A DNA stretch of 64,000 nt from the NCBI RefSeq assembly GCF_003334815.1, contig NZ_QOWO01000021.1. One strand, written 5' to 3'. Both the position numbers and the translations under genes were made by a program. Shown here piece by piece: positions 1 through 7,957 of the stretch. Source of the DNA: Escherichia coli (GTDB lineage Bacteria > Pseudomonadota > Gammaproteobacteria > Enterobacterales > Enterobacteriaceae). Within the stretch, counting starts at the first letter, position 1, and every line of letters begins with the position of its first letter. The notes under the pieces were generated by a model. It did no database searches. It was not told where the DNA came from and worked only from the letters and a program-made list of their open reading frames with translations.

Positions 1-2
1 GC

Positions 3-140
3 TATGAATATCTGCTGGAGAAGTACAGCTCGCTGGAATCCATTCATACTGAGATTGGCACCAACGAACTTGGCGAGCTGGAAGAGCAAAAAATCTTTAC
101 CGGCGATCTGCTGACACCGTGGCGTAACAGGCGATATTGA
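3..140 (+). CDS. 3' end of an uncharacterized upstream gene (C-terminal 45 codons, truncated by window edge)
   Basis: Open frame from window start to a TGA at 138-140 (translation ...YEYLLEKYSSLESIHTEIGTNELGELEEQKIFTGDLLTPWRNRRY); co-directional with and 67 nt upstream of the helicase gene; frame choice not certain. Confidence 0.35.
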   Translation, partial: YEYLLEKYSSLESIHTEIGTNELGELEEQKIFTGDLLTPWRNRRY

Positions 141-207: not shown

Positions 208-3200
208 ATGGACTTATTTGACCTGTTAACAATTAAATTTACCTTGCCCGCGAAAGCTGCCCCTGTAAGAAAAGTGGGTGGGAATTATGTTCATAAATTA
301 CTTTGCCGATCAACAACAGTATTGGCTCAAGTCAGAAATGCACGTTTCCAAGGATATTTTGAACTTGTTACGGGTCTAAAGCCCCCTCTGGACTATGTCT
401 ATCTGAAAGATCCAAATTCCAGGGGTAAATGCGCAGATGGTGTAGCTTCCCTTAAAGCTAAGGAACCATTTACATTCGAAAAATGGCGAGAAGATACTGA
501 GTTAAGCTGGGAGCAATTTCCAGAGCAGGTAATTAGCACTTCACCTAATGAAATTAATGAACAATGGCATCATCAATTTCAGTTTAGAGAGGACGATCCA
601 GAGCGCAATTCTCCCGGTCTCAGAAAACCCCAACTGGGTGCACTTCATGCAATTGCAGGCTATTTCGCCACTGATTTGCAGGTAGAACCTGCTACCGTCG
701 TACTGCCCACTGGAACGGGAAAAACGGAAACAATGCTGGCTACCATGATATACCAGCGATGCGAGCGAATTTTGCTCATAGTCCCATCTGACTCTCTCCG
801 AACACAGATATCCAAAAAGTTCATCGATTTAGGATATTTGCCAGAGCTAACAGTCGTTCCACCCAACATTGCACTTCCTAATGTCGCCATTATTAAGAAA
901 GGAATTCAGGTAGCGGAAGAAGCTAAGCAATTAGCTTGTGAATCAAACGTCTTGGTTGCTACGACCAGCGTTTTGTCTGCCTGCTCCGAAACAGCATTAA
1001 ATGCACTTTGCGAGTTGTGTAGCCATCTTTTTGTTGATGAGGCTCATCATATCTCAGCCTCATCATGGCAGACAATTCGCAAACGATTTAAAAACAAACG
1101 TGTAGTGCAGTTTACAGCTACCCCTTTTAGGAATGATAAAAAGTCCCTTGGTGGGAAAATTATCTATAACTACACGATGGGGGAAGCCCAACGAGCAGGC
1201 TATTTTACAAATGTAAATTTGCTGCCTGTAGAAGAGTATTACTCTGACCTTATGGATCACGCAATCGCAGATAAAGCTGTTGGCCAACTGCGTATAGACT
1301 TAAATAATGGCCTTGATCATTTGCTTATGGCCCGTACTAGCAATAAGCAGCGAGCAGAAGAAATACTGACTATTTATCAGAATATTGTACCGAACTTTAA
1401 TCCAATCGTTATTCATTCTGATTATCCTAAAACGGAAATAAAAAAACGTCTTAATAAATTATTATCAAGACAATCAAGAATCGTTATTTGCGTAGACATG
1501 TTGGGAGAAGGCTATGACCTACCCAACCTGAAAATTGCCGCTTTGCATGATCACCATAAGTCTCTTGCAGTAACTTTGCAGTTTATTGGCCGTTTTACTC
1601 GTGTCAATAAAGCACAGAAAATTGGTCAAGCTAGTGTAGTCATGAATGTTGCAGACCCTAATGTTGAAGGTGAATTACAGCATCTATATTCAACAGATGC
1701 CGATTGGGATAACGTATTAAGGCGACTCTCTGAAGGACGAATTGCTAGAGAGATTAGGTTGCAAGAGGTCGTGGATGCCTTAAAAAGGAAAGGTGATTTA
1801 CACGATCAGATCTCTCTCTGGAACCTTGAGCCAAGTTGTTCTGTCATGTTATTTAAAACATACTGTGACAATTGGGAGCCTGAAAGATACAAGGAAAAAC
1901 TGCCTAGATTCGATGAATCATGGCATGCAATAGCAGAAGATGAGAATTTGCTTGTTGTGCTAGCTGTCCAGACAACTTCAGTCCGGTGGGGAAACTACAA
2001 AGATCTTAAAGATACCAATTATAAAATTCTAATTGCTCATTGGGATCAAAGCAGATCCGCCTTGTTTGTATTCTCAAATGACTATAAAGCATTCCGGGTT
2101 GAGAATCTGGTTAGTACTATTTGTGATGATAAATTTGAAATTGTCAGTGGTGAAAAAGTTTTTAATGTATTTAATGGTATTGAATATCCTTTAGCAAGAA
2201 ATTTAGGCGCATCCCAAATTGGAGCAATAAGCTTTACTCAATATTTTGGCCCAAATGTCACTGAGGGGCTATCACTAATTGAAGCGTCTCAATCAAGCTT
2301 AAGCAATATTGCTGCATTAGGTTATGAATCCGGAAACCGTGTAATCTGGGGATGCTCGCAACGCAGAGGTAAGGTCTGGTCACCACAAAAAGGGGGTAGC
2401 ATTGCTGATTGGTGCAACTGGGTTAAGAAAACTTGGGACAAAATCTTTAGTTCTGAACCAGATCCAAACAACCTTACGCGTAACTTTTTGCGTCCTGTCC
2501 CATTACTCGAACCCTATAATGAATATCCAATATCAGCTCAATGGGGTGAGTATTTGCTTACTACGTTCGAAGATAAAGTTATTTTTCATTTTGATGCTAT
2601 ATCAGCTCACTTATATTTAGTAGATGTGAAGACTGCTGGAAAGTTTGACGATGGCAATGTGCGGCTCATTTTTTCTACAGATGAAACTTCATCTGAATAT
2701 AAATTATGTCTTACAGGTAGTACTACAGCAAAAGGTTATGCCTATCAGTTGATTTCTGGCCCTGAAGTCTTTGTACAGCGAGGTGAATCTGAACCTGTAT
2801 CACTATCAGAATATATGGAAATTGATCCAGTAATGATTCATTACTCCGATGGCTCATTTTCTTACAACGCTCATATAGTTCATGTAAGCCCAAATATTGG
2901 CCTTTATGACAAAGACGAAATTGTAGCTTTTGATTGGAATGGAACTGATGTTCGACTGGAATCAATGGGCTATACTCGTGATCCATCATCCATCCAGTGG
3001 CGTTGGTACAGTGAAATTAAAGATAATTACGATGTTATTATTAATGACGACGGTAAAGGTGAGTCAGCTGATTTAGTTGGGTTAAGAATAGTTGATGACT
3101 GTATTGTTCTCTCTTTAATTCATTGCAAGTATTCAGGCTCAGAAGAAGCTGGAGCAAGACTTAAAGATCTTTACGAAGTATGTGGGCAGGCACAGAGATG

Positions 3201-3489
3201 CATTCGTTGGAAGCACCTGAATCTTTCCTATTTATACCACCACATTAAGCGGCGCGAGGAACAGTGGCGATCGCTTGGTCATTCTCGCTTTCTAAAAGGC
3301 ACTATAAAAGACCTTGCAGCTATGAAAGAGCGCTCCAGAATCACACCTCTTAAATTCCAAGTTGTTATTGTTCAACCAGGACTTAGAGTAAACAAAATTA
3401 ATGAAGAAGGCCTTAAGTTACTTGGCAGTACGGCCTTATTTATCAAGAAAACAACGATGGCAGACTTAGTTGTTATTGGTTCTAAATAG
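208..3489 (+). CDS. SF2 (ResIII/DEAD-DEAH type) helicase-family ATPase with long uncharacterized C-terminal region (1093 aa)
   Basis: ATG at 208 preceded by AAGAGG at 193-198; Walker A GTGKT (nt 712-726), DEAHH (nt 1036-1050), TATP motif III, QFIGRFTR motif VI (nt 1579-1602); residues ~470-1093 unassigned; AT-rich codon usage. Confidence 0.85.
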   Translation: MDLFDLLTIKFTLPAKAAPVRKVGGNYVHKLLCRSTTVLAQVRNARFQGYFELVTGLKPPLDYVYLKDPNSRGKCADGVASLKAKEPFTFEKWREDTELSWEQFPEQVISTSPNEINEQWHHQFQFREDDPERNSPGLRKPQLGALHAIAGYFATDLQVEPATVVLPTGTGKTETMLATMIYQRCERILLIVPSDSLRTQISKKFIDLGYLPELTVVPPNIALPNVAIIKKGIQVAEEAKQLACESNVLVATTSVLSACSETALNALCELCSHLFVDEAHHISASSWQTIRKRFKNKRVVQFTATPFRNDKKSLGGKIIYNYTMGEAQRAGYFTNVNLLPVEEYYSDLMDHAIADKAVGQLRIDLNNGLDHLLMARTSNKQRAEEILTIYQNIVPNFNPIVIHSDYPKTEIKKRLNKLLSRQSRIVICVDMLGEGYDLPNLKIAALHDHHKSLAVTLQFIGRFTRVNKAQKIGQASVVMNVADPNVEGELQHLYSTDADWDNVLRRLSEGRIAREIRLQEVVDALKRKGDLHDQISLWNLEPSCSVMLFKTYCDNWEPERYKEKLPRFDESWHAIAEDENLLVVLAVQTTSVRWGNYKDLKDTNYKILIAHWDQSRSALFVFSNDYKAFRVENLVSTICDDKFEIVSGEKVFNVFNGIEYPLARNLGASQIGAISFTQYFGPNVTEGLSLIEASQSSLSNIAALGYESGNRVIWGCSQRRGKVWSPQKGGSIADWCNWVKKTWDKIFSSEPDPNNLTRNFLRPVPLLEPYNEYPISAQWGEYLLTTFEDKVIFHFDAISAHLYLVDVKTAGKFDDGNVRLIFSTDETSSEYKLCLTGSTTAKGYAYQLISGPEVFVQRGESEPVSLSEYMEIDPVMIHYSDGSFSYNAHIVHVSPNIGLYDKDEIVAFDWNGTDVRLESMGYTRDPSSIQWRWYSEIKDNYDVIINDDGKGESADLVGLRIVDDCIVLSLIHCKYSGSEEAGARLKDLYEVCGQAQRCIRWKHLNLSYLYHHIKRREEQWRSLGHSRFLKGTIKDLAAMKERSRITPLKFQVVIVQPGLRVNKINEEGLKLLGSTALFIKKTTMADLVVIGSK

Positions 3490-3584: not shown

Positions 3585-4907
3585 ATGATCCTATTCTTTT
3601 ATCCCTACATAATGCTTTGCTATAGCGCTGGATACGCTTTATTGCAAACACTGGATGGGATGGGTGTGATTAGTACCAACTTTGTAGAAATGAACGCACA
3701 GGGTGCTCTTTTGAGCAGTTACTGGTCTCCCAATAAAGTTGCTGTAGTCTTAGGAGGATGTTTTCTTGAGCTCTTTATTTTATTATTACCTTTTGTTTTC
3801 TTGAGCTCATGGATACTTGCCAGAAAAAAGGGACTCATCATTTGTTTTGTTCTTCTTATAACCCCTGGCCTATTATCGCTCTGTCACCTTCTTCCTGCTA
3901 TCCAGTGGTTGCCATTGACCTATGAAATAGGAGGTACAGGTGCAACAGGTAACGCAGCTGGACTCGGAAGTCTTAGCTTCATAGGGCTATTGAGTGGTTG
4001 GATTTTGGCAGTAATCATTAGTGATATTTTTGCTACAGGAGAGAAATTCAGACAGTGGACAGATATTTTCCTAATACTGACAGCAGTTGGAAACGGTCTT
4101 TTCTGGGTATCAGACAGAGAGGTGGCTGTCGGTAAAACCGCATATGAGAAAACAATTACGGATATTAATGATGCAGCCAAATACCTTCTTTTTCAGGTGA
4201 AAGACTACAGCCGCATGTGTGACAATAACGGGCTTACCGAAATGTCATCTTGTCAGTGGGCATCGTACATTCAAGAAACGCTAGAAAATATTGCCAGTAC
4301 AAAATCATCTGTTATTGAATATGTAATACCTGAAAATCTTGACACCTTCTACCGAATTCCTGAGTACTATAGCAATCAAGTATCTCCAGATAAAATCAGA
4401 CAGGAATTTCAAGACTTCAATAAAAAACTATGCCCAAATAAATCTCTTTCCAAAACAATAACACAATTGCCATCACCTTCTCGATGGTGCCAGACCCCAC
4501 CCCCAGCTTACTGCAATGCCATTCAAGAGGGAAAATATAAAACAGGCATGTCAGACCGTTTCGCTGTCGCCAATGAGTGTGTAACTACATCATTATTAAG
4601 GTACCGCCAAGTTTTATTAAAAGAACAAGCTCGTTTATCCTTAAGTAAAAATGCCCCTCATTATAGATGGATGTGGTTTATTGCTATGTCTTTTTTTATT
4701 GGAGGGAAAATTGCCAATGTAATGACAAAAATAGGTAATGTAGAGAATCGTCTCATAACTGAGAAACATAGAGTTAAATTCATCCTTCTAAAAACATGTG
4801 GTTTTATTGTGCGTACATTAATAAGATGTGCCATCTTATTTCGGAAAGTGTTTTTTTCAACGATCAATTATATCAAAAGATTGAAGAAAATAAAGCATGA
4901 TACTTAA
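3585..4907 (+). CDS. Putative polytopic membrane protein, function unknown (440 aa; start codon uncertain)
   Basis: 1.3 kb ORF in AT-rich DNA; N-terminal half has several hydrophobic helix-length segments, one more near C-terminus; 95 nt downstream of helicase gene, same strand. Confidence 0.55.
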   Translation: MILFFYPYIMLCYSAGYALLQTLDGMGVISTNFVEMNAQGALLSSYWSPNKVAVVLGGCFLELFILLLPFVFLSSWILARKKGLIICFVLLITPGLLSLCHLLPAIQWLPLTYEIGGTGATGNAAGLGSLSFIGLLSGWILAVIISDIFATGEKFRQWTDIFLILTAVGNGLFWVSDREVAVGKTAYEKTITDINDAAKYLLFQVKDYSRMCDNNGLTEMSSCQWASYIQETLENIASTKSSVIEYVIPENLDTFYRIPEYYSNQVSPDKIRQEFQDFNKKLCPNKSLSKTITQLPSPSRWCQTPPPAYCNAIQEGKYKTGMSDRFAVANECVTTSLLRYRQVLLKEQARLSLSKNAPHYRWMWFIAMSFFIGGKIANVMTKIGNVENRLITEKHRVKFILLKTCGFIVRTLIRCAILFRKVFFSTINYIKRLKKIKHDT

Positions 4908-5425: not shown

Positions 5426-6391
5426 ATGCCTTTAGATTTAAGTAACACTTTAGTGATTGGCATCAGCGCGACTGCGCTTTTTGATATGAGTGAATCCGAT
5501 CGCATGTTTTGCGAAACCTATGCGACCGATCCTGATAGCGCCATTGAAAAATACCGCGCCTATATGCTGGAGCACGAAAACCAACCTTTACAGCCCGGAA
5601 CAGGCTACCCTTTAGTCAAAGCGTTGCTGGGTCTGAACCAGTACCGTCAACCGGATGATAAATCACCGTTGGTTGAAGTCGTTGTGATGTCACGTAACAG
5701 CCCTGATACAGGTATCCGCGTTCTGAATACTATTCGCCATGACAGGCTCGATATCACGCGCTCTGCCTTTACAGCAGGCGAAACTGTTGCTGATTACCTT
5801 GATGCCTTTGATGTGGATCTGTTTTTAACAACTAACGTTGAAGATGCGCAAAAGGTGATTGATTCCCGATTCTGCGCCGCTGCAATCCTGAAAGATCCGC
5901 CTTCTGACGCATCTGATATCCCGGAAGGGCAAGTGCGCATTGCTTTTGACGGCGACGCGGTACTTTTTTCCGATCAAAGCGAACTGGTTTATAAGACCCA
6001 AGGAATGGTTGCCTTTCATGCTCAGGAAGACGCGCAGCAGGATATCCCTATGGAAGAGGGGCCTTATGCCACTTTGCTAAAAAAAATAGCCAAGCTTCAG
6101 GAACGATTGCCGACCCGCGTTGAGTATTCTCCTGTTCGTATTGCATTGGTGACAGCCCGAAATAGCCCTTCGGAAATGCGCGTTATTAAAACGCTAAGAA
6201 GCTGGGGGGTATATGTCGATGAAGCTTTTTTTCTTGGCGGCGTAGAGAAAACAAAAGTTCTGAAGGCATTTAAACCACACATTTTCTTCGACGATCAGGA
6301 TGTGCATTTAAATACAGCTGCAAAGGTTGTACCTTCCGGGAAAGTACCTTATGCCAGTAACTCCGAACTGGCAGAGCGTGAAGCATCGTAA
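5426..6391 (+). CDS. HAD-like 5'-nucleotidase-family protein (putative)
   Basis: ORF with AGGA 8 nt upstream of ATG 5426; two internally similar halves each with an Asp-rich segment (LFDMSESD and IAFDGDAVLF) and C-terminal FFDDQD resembling HAD phosphatase motifs; family assignment from recollection. Confidence 0.65.
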   Translation: MPLDLSNTLVIGISATALFDMSESDRMFCETYATDPDSAIEKYRAYMLEHENQPLQPGTGYPLVKALLGLNQYRQPDDKSPLVEVVVMSRNSPDTGIRVLNTIRHDRLDITRSAFTAGETVADYLDAFDVDLFLTTNVEDAQKVIDSRFCAAAILKDPPSDASDIPEGQVRIAFDGDAVLFSDQSELVYKTQGMVAFHAQEDAQQDIPMEEGPYATLLKKIAKLQERLPTRVEYSPVRIALVTARNSPSEMRVIKTLRSWGVYVDEAFFLGGVEKTKVLKAFKPHIFFDDQDVHLNTAAKVVPSGKVPYASNSELAEREAS

Positions 6392-6582
6392 TTATCGCTG
6401 ATAAACCATTTAGTCATTAAGGCTGGATGGTTTGTATACCACACGCAAAATAACGGCCCTACCCCAGATCAATGCTCGCCTCTGAACACCTCTTTCCTGT
6501 GCCATTCCACAAACTGTTCGCCCGGATAATTTTCTTTAACCGGTGGCAACGCAATCGCTTTTCCCGCAAAATCCCAGAACAG

Positions 6583-7344
6583 TCACTGTACCACTCCACC
6601 ATCATTTACCGCACCGGAAACTACCACACGCATATTTTCATCCAGGTCAATCGAACCGCGATCAAACGCTTTATGATGGATTGCGCACAATGCCAGGCCA
6701 TTAGGTACTTCACAAGGGCCATGGTGCTGTTTCCATCTGATATGAGCAGCTTCCAGAGCAATCGGCGCATTGTCGTGGCGCATGTTAAAGCCGCAGATAG
6801 CGCACTGATAATTGTAAGCATGTAGCACCATCTGGCGAAACTTCGGATCGCGTTGACGAAGAGAGGTGCGAATATCAAAACTCCTCTCGTCAGCTATCTC
6901 TTCCTGAATACTGGCCGGGAAATGCGCCTCCAGGAGCTGCTGCGCCAGCGTATCAATTAACCTGTAATTTTTTTCCACCAACGCAAAATTATCGGCATCA
7001 AATCCACCAGCGACATTATATTCAATGAGTTCACGTCGGGGCGGCTGGCGGCTACCACTGGTTGAGCACAGTTCCGCGTTATGTAGTTCCCAGAAGCCAT
7101 CGCCCTTCAGACGCCAGAACGGCATGTCCGGGCGCTGGTCACGGCGCTGCGGTCCATAACGTTCCAGGAGATCCAACAGGGGCTCGTAGATTTCAGAAGC
7201 ATAGTTAAACAGGCGACCATGACTCTGCCGATAGTGTGAGAGAACGTACAGCAGCAATAATGGCTTATGTGGCGCACGTTGTTCACCTTTGCGCCAGATG
7301 GTGATATTTGATATCGCTTGCTTTAGGGTTTTGTCAGAGGTCAT
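6583..7344 (-). CDS. HNH endonuclease-family protein with uncharacterized N-terminal domain
   Basis: C-terminal HNH signature (YQCAICGF ... AAHIRWKQHHG ... NGLALCAIHHKAFDRG); start could be ATG 7344 or upstream TTG 7389. Confidence 0.75.
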   Translation of the reverse strand: MTSDKTLKQAISNITIWRKGEQRAPHKPLLLLYVLSHYRQSHGRLFNYASEIYEPLLDLLERYGPQRRDQRPDMPFWRLKGDGFWELHNAELCSTSGSRQPPRRELIEYNVAGGFDADNFALVEKNYRLIDTLAQQLLEAHFPASIQEEIADERSFDIRTSLRQRDPKFRQMVLHAYNYQCAICGFNMRHDNAPIALEAAHIRWKQHHGPCEVPNGLALCAIHHKAFDRGSIDLDENMRVVVSGAVNDGGVVQ

Positions 7345-7463
7345 TGCGTTGAAGAATCCATGAGCATATGTTTGCGATGATGCTCGCAACTATATGTATA
7401 TTCAAGGCATTATTGCAGACATCCTTTTTGCCTGACGGCTCTGTACCTGGCAGATGGAATTCT

Positions 7464-7518
7464 GAAAAAAATACAGCGACCAACCAGTCCTAAGCGGTCT
7501 GGTTGGTCTTTTAAATTT
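7464..7518. terminator. Hairpin (gaccaaccag / ctggttggtc) flanked by A-run and T-run; candidate bidirectional intrinsic terminator
   Basis: 10-bp perfect inverted repeat at 7478-7487 / 7499-7508 with 11-nt loop, AAAAAAA upstream and TTTTAAATTT downstream. Confidence 0.5.
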
Positions 7519-7549
7519 AAACATCAGCCAAGGAGTAACGGCATTCAAC

Positions 7550-7780
7550 TCACTCGCCATTACCCCGATTGATCTTCGCATAGTCAAACGGCGTAATCGC
7601 TCTTTCCCGATTGGCATCCAGAAAATCGACCCACCACTGCAACATCAGCTTACGCTCATCCAGATATTCCGCTTTATGGATTATACGCGGCCTGCACTGA
7701 GTTACGTCCATGTGGCTCATCTGACGTTCAGCCGCTTTATCTCGTGCTGTTTTGGTCTCAATACTTCCATGCCGTTGCAA
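7550..7780 (-). pseudogene. Remnant of a P4-type tyrosine integrase (C-terminal ~70 codons only)
   Basis: Translation aligns to the C-terminus of the intact integrase at 10668-11933 (about 37 of 58 residues identical by manual alignment, e.g. IHKAE.L.ER.LMLQWW.DFLDANRER); N-terminal catalytic body absent. Confidence 0.7.
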
Positions 7781-7957
7781 TTACCTCTTAAACCATTCCT
7801 TACCATTTTCATGTCTTCGATAAGAAATCTTCATCATGCATGATCGATTTTGTCTATCTATTCGATCGAATTTTTTCTTTTTACCCTGTCTTTTGCATGG
7901 TTTTAAAATAAGCAACCTTCTTTATCGGGTGGGTAAGAACCAACGGAGATGATTGAA

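What the first reader, a model, noticed from the sequence alone, without database searches (positions are those of the whole stretch)
6583..7344. HNH endonuclease with ~150-residue uncharacterized N-terminal domain: possible modification-dependent (Type IV-like) restriction enzyme
The C-terminal region carries a clear HNH/zinc-finger nuclease signature (CAICGF ... AAHIRWKQHHG ... NGLALCAIHHKAFDRG). The N-terminal domain (KPLLLLYVLSHYRQ ... FWRLKGDGFWELHN ...) is not one I can name; in stand-alone HNH enzymes such domains usually read DNA modification (5mC, phosphorothioate). No methyltransferase is adjacent in the window.
Basis: partly seen in the sequence, partly recalled or inferred. Interest (0 to 1): 0.55.

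Follow-up and report, generated by a model that had tools for sequence, protein, structure and literature searches.

The report
Broken copy of EcoWI restriction gene
This is a copy of the already characterised E. coli restriction enzyme EcoWI, which cuts DNA carrying sulfur (phosphorothioate) backbone marks. A premature stop codon removes its conserved last 37 residues, so it is an ordinary decaying pseudogene.

Summary

**What the domains are**
- The "uncharacterised" N-terminal domain is the known DNA sulfur-binding domain (SBD) of ScoMcrA, SprMcrA and EcoWI.
- The C-terminal half is an HNH_2 nuclease of the TagI/VcaM4I type.
- The protein scores 382 bits (cutoff 180) against NCBIfam NF045808, "phosphorothioated DNA-binding restriction endonuclease".
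- It is 96.7% nucleotide-identical to the intact 291-aa gene at the leuX island of E. coli W. That gene's 33.41 kDa product matches the size published for EcoWI (cleaves GpsAAC/GpsTTC at N7/N6, Mg2+, dimer).

**Why it is a pseudogene**
- The ORF ends at an in-frame TGA (6583-6585). Intact alleles have CGA or CGG (Arg254) there.
- The frame continues for 37 more codons, to 6469.
- The lost tail holds one of five invariant family residues (W281) and four near-invariant ones, and is well ordered in a pLDDT-96 model.
- RefSeq flags the identical sequence as a pseudogene ("internal stop").
- Sister alleles share the TGA and add frameshifts and substitutions at sulfur-pocket residues. Non-synonymous:synonymous counts are 21:15, against 2:15 between intact alleles.

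**Verdict:** The family is already known and this copy is most likely inactive. Low interest.

The parts
6469..7344 (-). Whole gene: 291 codons plus stop, an ecoWIR-type phosphorothioate-dependent SBD-HNH restriction endonuclease interrupted by one in-frame stop (pseudogene).
   Evidence: In-frame continuation after the TGA. PGAP annotates the identical sequence in EC556 and the near-identical one in 52F4 as 'phosphorothioated DNA-binding restriction endonuclease, internal stop' with these limits. It is 96.7% nucleotide-identical to the intact E. coli W gene.
6583..7344 (-). It holds the SBD, the linker and the HNH beta-beta-alpha-metal core.
   Evidence: NF045808 scores 382 bits over profile positions 2-248 of 284. 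The identical 253-aa product exists in databases as P0041, 'HNH nuclease [E. coli]', on 74 contigs.
6583..6585 (-). Premature stop codon TGA at codon 254, followed by C. Intact alleles have CGA (E. coli W) or CGG (FLI21), both Arg.
   Evidence: Alignments. The TGA-bearing 61-mer is found exactly in 12 complete E. coli records.
6469..6582 (-). Orphaned 3' end: 37 codons plus the original stop, encoding the conserved C-terminal part of the HNH domain (P267, W281, H282, V286, F287).
   Evidence: W281 is invariant and P267, H282, V286 and F287 are at least 90% conserved in 127 homologs of 33-76% identity. AF2 block pLDDT is 95-98 over residues 241-290, falling to 65 at terminal residue 291, with a helix at 276-285. 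The region aligns with the C-terminal end of the VcaM4I HNH domain, 170-308.
6919..7335 (-). Sulfur-binding domain (SBD), residues about 4-142. Sulfur-pocket residues are H26-K27 (7264-7269) and M74-P75 (7120-7125). The motif is KPLLLL...PFWRL...W.
   Evidence: phmmer against PDB gives ScoMcrA SBD 5zmo E=1.5e-6. The family profile gives E=4e-25 to ScoMcrA and 1e-16 to SprMcrA SBD. Foldseek to 5zmo_A gives TM 0.81 (target-normalised) and rmsd 2.7 A. Pocket residues are taken by analogy with SBDHga H25/K26/L75/P76 (PMC10602919) and the HR/HK + YP motif of PMC7461809.
6649..6804 (-). HNH_2 core, residues 181-232: zinc ligands C181-x2-C184 and C220-x2-H223, and catalytic H201, N215 and H224. All are intact.
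   Evidence: Pfam PF13391 E=6e-9. These residues are invariant or near-invariant in the family. There are sequence matches to TagI 6ghs and to VcaM4I 6yex, and Foldseek matches to both.

Best explanation
Window 6469..7344 (minus strand) is a nonsense-mutated allele of ecoWIR, the gene for the EcoWI-type phosphorothioate-dependent restriction endonuclease.

How the intact 291-aa enzyme works (established for EcoWI and solved relatives, inferred here): it is a homodimer. The N-terminal sulfur-binding domain buries the Rp sulfur of a Dnd-made phosphorothioate link (GpsAAC/GpsTTC) in a small hydrophobic pocket (here H26, K27, M74, P75) and reads the neighbouring bases. A helical linker positions the C-terminal zinc-stabilised HNH domain. 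With Mg2+, that domain cuts both strands a fixed distance downstream (N7/N6, 1-nt 3' overhang). This destroys incoming DNA from dnd+ donors. Unmodified host DNA is largely spared (EcoWI does digest unmodified DNA at high enzyme concentration or with Mn2+), so no methyltransferase partner is needed.

What happened in this window (shown): a C-to-T change turned Arg254 (CGA) into TGA and removed the last 37 residues.

Consequence (inferred): those residues are a conserved, ordered part of the HNH domain. In the related VcaM4I structure the HNH domain as a whole mediates dimerisation. The 253-aa product is therefore most likely misfolded or inactive, and the gene is a decaying remnant on a mosaic pheV island next to a remnant integrase.
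For: - Family identity: NF045808 E=1.5e-114, 382 bits against a cutoff of 180. Precomputed Pfam on homologs gives PF26340 DNA-SBD_ScoMcrA plus PF13391 HNH_2.
- Structure: an AF2 model of the intact allele has pLDDT 96 and pTM 0.91. Foldseek top hits are the ScoMcrA, SprMcrA and Hga sulfur-binding domains in complex with PT-DNA, plus VcaM4I and TagI for the HNH half.
- Link to EcoWI: E. coli W carries an intact 291-aa ortholog at leuX. Its calculated mass is 33.41 kDa against the published 33.4 kDa for EcoWI. It is 96.7% nucleotide-identical to the window gene and differs by 10 substitutions plus R254stop (PMC7461809).
- EcoWI biochemistry and in vivo restriction of dnd+ plasmids: PMC7461809.
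- Truncation: in-frame TGA followed by 37 conserved codons. PGAP marks the gene 'internal stop' in EC556, 52F4, A12, A19, O22:H8 154, ZYB39 and N10.
- Importance of the tail: W281 is one of only 5 invariant columns, and P267, H282, V286 and F287 are at least 90% conserved. Nearly all 150 diverse representatives align through residue 288-290. The tail is ordered in AF2 and aligns with the end of the VcaM4I HNH domain, whose HNH domains dimerise (PMC7897488).
- Decay: alleles sharing the TGA also carry extra frameshifts (Z1323MEC0001 and the second 52F4 copy) and substitutions at near-invariant SBD residues (A24S, K27N, P75L in ZYB39 and N10). Within this clade the non-synonymous:synonymous count is 21:15, against 2:15 between the two intact alleles (Fisher p=0.0024).
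Against: - No experiment shows that the 253-aa product is inactive. Every catalytic and zinc-binding residue and the whole SBD are retained.
- The TGA allele has persisted across strains that differ by about 5% at synonymous sites. The 21:15 ratio is somewhat below a strict neutral expectation (binomial p=0.015-0.15 depending on the assumed fraction of non-synonymous sites), so some residual constraint cannot be excluded.
- The stop is UGA followed by C, which from general knowledge is a leaky terminator in E. coli.
- That EcoWI is the E. coli W protein is inferred from the enzyme's name and the mass match. The papers I could read give no accession.
Confidence: 0.82

Rival explanations
1. The truncated 253-aa protein is still functional. 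It could be a weaker PT-dependent nuclease or nickase, or a non-cutting phosphorothioate 'reader' that binds modified DNA and blocks its replication.
For: The SBD, linker, zinc ligands and H-N-H catalytic residues are all intact. The same 253-aa ORF occurs on 74 contigs, and the TGA allele is shared by diverged strains. Lutz et al. suggested that EcoWI binding alone may slow replication of weakly restricted plasmids (PMC7461809).
Against: The deleted tail contains an invariant Trp and four near-invariant residues and is an ordered part of the nuclease domain. Sister alleles add frameshifts and lose sulfur-pocket residues, and constraint is relaxed more than tenfold relative to intact alleles. 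PGAP calls it a pseudogene.
Confidence: 0.1
2. Leaky readthrough of the UGA-C stop by tRNA-Trp yields a small amount of full-length (R254W) enzyme, giving low-dose, less toxic restriction.
For: The stop is TGA followed by C, a context known from general knowledge to be read through at the percent level in E. coli. The 37 downstream codons are still open and unchanged from the intact FLI21 allele in this window. EcoWI expression lowered transformation efficiency 2-5 fold, which suggests mild toxicity (PMC7461809).
Against: In ZYB39 and N10 the downstream tail has also acquired R283W, next to the invariant W281 and near-invariant H282. Other sister alleles have upstream frameshifts, which is not expected if the full-length product were selected. 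There is no specific readthrough signal and no experimental evidence.
Confidence: 0.04
3. It is a base-modification (5mC/5hmC/6mA)-dependent Type IV enzyme of the McrA, SRA-HNH or PUA-HNH kind.
For: The HNH half resembles TagI, VcaM4I and EcoKMcrA. PADLOC gives a weak mREase_IV hit. ScoMcrA itself also senses 5mC/5hmC, through a separate SRA domain (PMC7461809).
Against: There is no SRA, PUA, EVE or NEco domain. Residues 4-142 match only sulfur-binding domains. The PADLOC mREase_IV hit covers the SBD-equivalent segment, 94-228 of a 560-position model, the same span as in ScoMcrA.
Confidence: 0.02

Closest known systems
EcoWI (ecoWIR; very likely WP_000199891.1 of E. coli W), an SBD-HNH phosphorothioate-dependent restriction endonuclease (Lutz et al. 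2020, PMC7461809; Yang et al. 2022, PMC9521924)
   Same: Same gene family and same species. It is 96.7% nucleotide-identical, and 280 of the 290 comparable residues are identical. It has the same SBD-linker-HNH layout and the same neighbours (tyrosine integrase on one side, a convergent 5'-nucleotidase on the other) in a tRNA-associated island.
   Different: The window allele has R254-to-stop (CGA to TGA) and lacks the last 37 residues. It has 10 amino-acid substitutions. It sits beside an integrase remnant inside a pheV island rather than next to an intact integrase at leuX.
SprMcrA (Streptomyces pristinaespiralis), SBD-HNH; SBD structures 7cc9, 7ccd and 7ccj
   Same: Two-domain SBD-HNH architecture without an SRA domain. 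PT-dependent cleavage at GpsAAC/GpsTTC.
   Different: Only about 18% identical to EcoWI. It depends on Mn2+ and cuts at a variable distance, so it is classed as Type IV (PMC7461809). Its sulfur pocket uses Tyr-Pro where the window protein has Met-Pro.
ScoMcrA (Sco4631), head-SBD-SRA-HNH Type IV enzyme; structures 5zmm, 5zmn and 5zmo
   Same: Homologous sulfur-binding domain (profile E=4e-25; Foldseek TM 0.81 normalised to the target), with the conserved H-(K/R)-P-L-L-L and P-F-W motifs.
   Different: ScoMcrA has an extra N-terminal head and an SRA domain for 5mC/5hmC. Its HNH domain is a different, weakly matching type (16 bits).
TagI (6ghs) and VcaM4I (6yex), PUA/EVE-HNH modification-dependent endonucleases
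   Same: Same HNH_2-type nuclease domain. The VcaM4I alignment (170-308) includes the C-terminal extension that is lost here, whereas the TagI match covers only the core, to residue 243. VcaM4I dimerises through its HNH domains, and these HNH dimers leave single-nucleotide 3' overhangs (PMC7897488).
   Different: Their sensor domains are PUA-superfamily base-flipping readers of modified cytosine, not sulfur-binding domains.

Membership tests
EcoWI-like SBD-HNH phosphorothioate-dependent restriction endonucleases (NCBIfam NF045808) | Whole-protein score above the curated NCBIfam cutoff | tested here: met
   382 bits against a cutoff of 180, E=1.5e-114.
EcoWI-like SBD-HNH phosphorothioate-dependent restriction endonucleases (NCBIfam NF045808) | N-terminal DNA sulfur-binding domain (PF26340 fold) | tested here: met
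   PDB matches to the ScoMcrA, SprMcrA and Hga SBDs. Foldseek to 5zmo gives TM 0.81 (target-normalised) for the model of the intact allele. PF26340 is listed on all close homologs.
EcoWI-like SBD-HNH phosphorothioate-dependent restriction endonucleases (NCBIfam NF045808) | Sulfur-pocket and DNA-contact motif: H-K/R ... (Y/L/M)-P, KPzzLL ... PF-L-W | tested here: met
   H26-K27-P28-L-L-L-L, M74-P75-F76-W77-R78-L79 and W85 are present. These positions are near-invariant in 127 homologs. The motif is defined in PMC7461809 and PMC10602919.
EcoWI-like SBD-HNH phosphorothioate-dependent restriction endonucleases (NCBIfam NF045808) | C-terminal HNH_2 core with a CxxC...CxxH zinc site and H-N-H catalytic residues | tested here: met
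   Pfam PF13391 covers residues 181-232. C181, C184, H201, N215, C220, H223 and H224 are all present.
EcoWI-like SBD-HNH phosphorothioate-dependent restriction endonucleases (NCBIfam NF045808) | Uninterrupted reading frame through the conserved C-terminal extension (residues 254-291, with invariant W281) | tested here: not met
   There is an in-frame TGA at codon 254, and PGAP marks an 'internal stop'. It is therefore a pseudogene member of the family, not an intact one.
EcoWI-like SBD-HNH phosphorothioate-dependent restriction endonucleases (NCBIfam NF045808) | Phosphorothioate-dependent DNA cleavage and restriction of dnd+ DNA | not testable with these tools
   Shown only for EcoWI and four homologs in PMC7461809. 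Not measured for this allele.
EcoWI-like SBD-HNH phosphorothioate-dependent restriction endonucleases (NCBIfam NF045808) | No dnd modification cluster of matching specificity in the same genome | tested here: inconclusive
   There are no dnd genes in the first 30 kb of the window or the 15 kb upstream of it. The later part of the window was not examined. dndCD occurs in 207 of 5426 E. coli genomes. None of the 60 listed are strains carrying this TGA allele, but 147 were not listed.
SRA/PUA/EVE-HNH or McrA-type base-modification-dependent Type IV enzymes | SRA, PUA/EVE or NEco sensor domain for modified cytosine | tested here: not met
   Pfam finds only HNH_2. The sensor half matches SBD structures only.

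The most novel reading that the evidence does not exclude
The shared, fairly old TGA allele might be kept rather than merely decaying. The 253-aa SBD-HNH could act as a phosphorothioate 'reader' or nickase. Alternatively, UGA-C readthrough could supply a trace of full-length EcoWI, a self-attenuated form of an enzyme that has star activity on unmodified DNA.
Probability: 0.06. Interest if true: 0.35.

Novelty: already known. Interest (0 to 1): 0.08.

Why it matters
This matters little beyond correct annotation. The family is biochemically characterised (EcoWI is already used for PT mapping by EcoWI-seq), structurally understood at the SBD level, and named by NCBI's pipeline. There are two modest points of interest. 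The truncation shows that the C-terminal 37 residues are a conserved part of this HNH domain that no one appears to have tested. And E. coli populations carry both intact and repeatedly inactivated ecoWIR alleles while about 4% of complete genomes carry dnd. That fits a defence gene with a cost that is easily lost.

Tried and rejected
- **EcoWI accession or sequence.** I looked in PMC7461809 (main text and supplement) and PMC9521924 and found none. I fetched the leuX region of E. coli W instead and used the 33.41 versus 33.4 kDa mass match.
- **PADLOC.** It gave only generic HNH and mREase_IV hits and has no dedicated model.
- **Promoter and terminator scan of 6350-7950.** There was nothing upstream of the gene and counts were at the shuffle level.
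- **5'-nucleotidase as an obligate partner.** Rejected. A 76%-identical E. coli paralog sits next to McrBC and a ScoMcrA_N protein, and a 58% homolog sits next to dndB, both without a 5'-nucleotidase. The two genes are also convergent.
- **Does the host carry dnd, which could explain the inactivation?** I reached E. coli dnd loci through a metagenomic dndCD query: 207 of 5426 genomes have them. Only 60 records can be listed, so strain 52F4 could not be settled.
- **Sequencing error as the cause of the TGA.** Rejected. The identical 61-mer occurs in 12 independent complete genomes.
- **Selenocysteine or programmed recoding.** There is no supporting feature, so I did not pursue it.
- **The TTG at 7389 as the start (268-aa ORF).** Rejected. 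All homologs and PGAP start at the ATG at 7344.

Full report
**1. Observation**

The ATG at 7344 is the start used by all homologs and by RefSeq annotation. The upstream TTG at 7389 is not supported. The match to known families is far beyond chance: NCBIfam NF045808, "phosphorothioated DNA-binding restriction endonuclease", gives E=1.5e-114 and 382 bits against a curated cutoff of 180. Pfam HNH_2 matches residues 181-232.

**2.

The NCBIfam alignment ends at profile position 248 of 284. Reading on in the same frame past the TGA at 6583-6585 gives LFWDFAGKAIALPPVKENYPGEQFVEWHRKEVFRGEH and then a stop at 6469. The real gene is therefore 6469..7344, 291 codons, with one internal stop.

- RefSeq/PGAP annotates the identical sequence in strain EC556, and a near-identical one in strain 52F4, as a pseudogene with an "internal stop".
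- Intact alleles have Arg at this codon: CGG in strain FLI21 and CGA in E. coli W. The lesion is a single C-to-T transition.
- The TGA-bearing 61-mer is found exactly in 12 complete E. coli records, so it is not a sequencing error.

**3. What the domains are**

The N-terminal domain is not uncharacterised.

- Residues 4-142 match the sulfur-binding domain (SBD) of ScoMcrA (5zmo, 5zmm) at E=1.5e-6 with the single sequence. A profile of 127 homologs gives E=4e-25.
- The same profile matches the SBDs of SprMcrA (7cc9, E=1e-16) and Hga (8h0l).
- Close homologs carry precomputed Pfam PF26340 (DNA-SBD_ScoMcrA) plus PF13391.
- An AlphaFold2 model of the intact E. coli W allele, built on that alignment, has mean pLDDT 96 and pTM 0.91.
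- Foldseek against the PDB returns SBD-PT-DNA complexes as top hits (5zmo_A: TM 0.81 normalised to the target, rmsd 2.7 A). VcaM4I (6yex) and TagI (6ghs) follow for the nuclease half.
- The sulfur-pocket residues are present as H26-K27 and M74-P75, within the conserved KPLLLL...PFWRL...W motif. They are known from the SBD structures as H-K/R plus a hydrophobic residue followed by Pro (PMC7461809; PMC10602919).
- The zinc ligands (C181, C184, C220, H223) and catalytic H201, N215 and H224 are also present.

**4. Relationship to the characterised enzyme**

Lutz et al. 2020 (PMC7461809) characterised EcoWI.

- It is an SBD-HNH enzyme that recognises GpsAAC/GpsTTC and cuts at N7/N6, leaving a 1-nt 3' overhang.
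- It uses Mg2+, is a dimer in solution, and has a predicted mass of 33.4 kDa.
- In vivo it strongly restricts dnd+ plasmids.

The papers give no accession, so I fetched the leuX region of E. coli W. It carries an intact 291-aa "phosphorothioated DNA-binding restriction endonuclease" (WP_000199891.1) between the island integrase and a 5'-nucleotidase. Its calculated mass is 33.41 kDa. The window gene is 96.7% nucleotide-identical to it, with 10 amino-acid substitutions plus R254stop. I therefore treat the window gene as an allele of ecoWIR. That EcoWI is this exact protein is an inference from the enzyme's name and the mass match.

**5. Is the truncated copy functional?**

The lost 37 residues are not a dispensable tail.

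- In 127 homologs of 33-76% identity only five columns are invariant, and one of them is W281. P267, H282, V286 and F287 are at least 90% conserved.
- Nearly all of the 150 best 50%-cluster representatives align through residue 288-290.
- In the AF2 model the region is ordered. Block pLDDT is 95-98 over residues 241-290, dropping to 65 at terminal residue 291, and there is a helix at 276-285.
- The region aligns with the C-terminal end of the VcaM4I HNH domain (profile 144-291 against VcaM4I 170-308). In the VcaM4I crystal structures the protomers dimerise through that domain (PMC7897488).

Population data agree with decay.

- All nine sampled alleles that sit beside the integrase remnant are flagged as pseudogenes. 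Eight share the TGA.
- Z1323MEC0001 and the second copy in 52F4 add frameshifts. PapRG-04-4 keeps CGA but has its own frameshift.
- ZYB39 and N10 add A24S, K27N, Y33C, P75L, A196D and R283W, several of them at near-invariant or sulfur-pocket positions.
- Within the TGA clade I count 21 non-synonymous and 15 synonymous changes plus two indels. Between the two intact alleles, W and FLI21, the count is 2:15 (omega 0.04). Fisher p=0.0024.
- The database also contains many other broken forms of this gene in Enterobacteriaceae. Most are N-terminally truncated ORF calls, and one is an insertion allele.

My conclusion, with about 0.8 confidence, is that this copy is an inactive, decaying pseudogene. 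Residual activity of the 253-aa product, or trace readthrough of the UGA-C stop, is not excluded. I keep these as low-probability rivals.

**6. Context**

The first 25 kb of the window match E. coli strain 52F4 (calf, Switzerland) at about 100% identity. The match starts at record position 4,270,148. The gene itself is identical to that of strain EC556, whereas the 52F4 copy differs by one base. Reading leftward from the chromosome backbone, the order is as follows:

| Feature | Window coordinates |
|---|---|
| Chromosome backbone (yqgA-speC) | not determined |
| tRNA-Phe (pheV) | 12131..12206 |
| Intact integrase | 10668..11933 |
| Phosphoethanolamine transferase | 8850..10349 |
| Outer-membrane protein | 7958..8698 |
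| Integrase remnant | 7550..7735 |
| ecoWIR pseudogene | 6469..7344 |
| Convergent 5'-nucleotidase | 5426..6391 |
| Hypothetical membrane protein | 3642..4907 |
| DEAD/DEAH helicase, 1093 aa | 208..3489 |
| Truncated type I hsdM and hsdR fragments | window 1-128 and upstream |

A leuX-type "integrase-ecoWIR-5'-nucleotidase" module has apparently been captured inside a pheV island, with its integrase eroded. Strain 52F4 carries the whole module twice, at pheV and at pheU, and both ecoWIR copies are broken.

The 5'-nucleotidase is not a family-wide partner. A 76%-identical E. coli paralog sits next to McrBC, and a 58% homolog sits next to dndB.

dndCD occurs in 207 of 5426 complete E. coli genomes. 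I could not establish whether the host of this window is among them.

**7. Verdict**

Its interpretation is right in kind: a modification-dependent HNH nuclease with no methyltransferase needed, and phosphorothioate was one of the two guesses. But the sensor domain is a known, solved fold, the enzyme family is biochemically characterised and routinely annotated, and this copy is a nonsense-mutated pseudogene. Novelty: already known. Interest: low.

Noticed in passing
window 5426..6391 (+): The convergent neighbour is a PF06189 5'-nucleotidase (E=4e-119). It matches the PADLOC defence candidate PDC-S08 at E=1.7e-134. It lies next to ecoWIR in E. coli W, FLI21 and this window. It is itself frameshifted or stopped in several strains that carry the broken ecoWIR. 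It is absent from the neighbourhoods of two more distant homologs.
   Followed up: partly
window 208..3489 (+) and 3585/3642..4907 (+): A 1093-aa DEAD/DEAH (ResIII + Helicase_C) protein has about 600 C-terminal residues with no Pfam, NCBIfam or PADLOC family. Only weak PbeA and type I R hits fall on the helicase core. By eye, a possible D...E-x-K nuclease-like motif lies near '...ADLVGL...LIHCKYS'. It is followed by a 421-440 aa predicted membrane protein with no family hit. The pair sits between type I R-M fragments and the 5'-nucleotidase and may be an undescribed defence pair.
   Followed up: partly
window 7550..7735 (-), 10668..11933 (-), 12131..12206 (-): The island is nested. A 62-76 aa C-terminal integrase remnant lies immediately upstream of the pseudogene. 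A second, intact P4-type integrase lies next to tRNA-Phe (pheV). Strain 52F4 carries the same ~12 kb module a second time at the other tRNA-Phe (pheU, next to dicD-dsbD-cutA), again with a broken ecoWIR (L013).
   Followed up: partly
L017:1-3670 (metagenome contig ERZ12636457): A 58%-identical EcoWI homolog (2373-3245) lies about 700 bp from a divergently oriented dndB. An upstream ORF was not looked up and is possibly dndC. The closest named DndB is from Orbus. This is one of the rare cases of a PT-dependent nuclease beside a dnd cluster, which Lutz et al. put below 3.6% of predicted PTDRs.
   Followed up: no
protein P0038 (E. coli, 263 aa, 7 contigs): Another E. coli ecoWIR allele is cut just two codons after the window's stop: ...VVQRL then GDDANLLI. 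From memory, that foreign tail looks like the end of an IS1 element. If so, the same C-terminal region has been knocked out independently by an insertion.
   Followed up: no
L014:5214-10297 (E. coli CP181453.1): A second E. coli paralog group (P0059, 290 aa, 76% identity, 779 contigs) sits between a 216-aa protein made of the ScoMcrA N-terminal 'head' domain (PF26345) and an McrBC system. This is a different defence-island context from the leuX/pheV module.
   Followed up: no
E. coli complete genomes: dndB/C/D clusters are present in 207 of 5426 complete E. coli genomes (3.8%), all chromosomal, including B7A and 55989. This is the pool of phosphorothioate-modified DNA that an active EcoWI would target.
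   Followed up: partly
window 7958..10349 (+): The island carries an outer-membrane protein followed by a 499-aa phosphoethanolamine transferase, between the two integrase genes. In EC556 an IS3 element is inserted between them; it is absent here.
   Followed up: no
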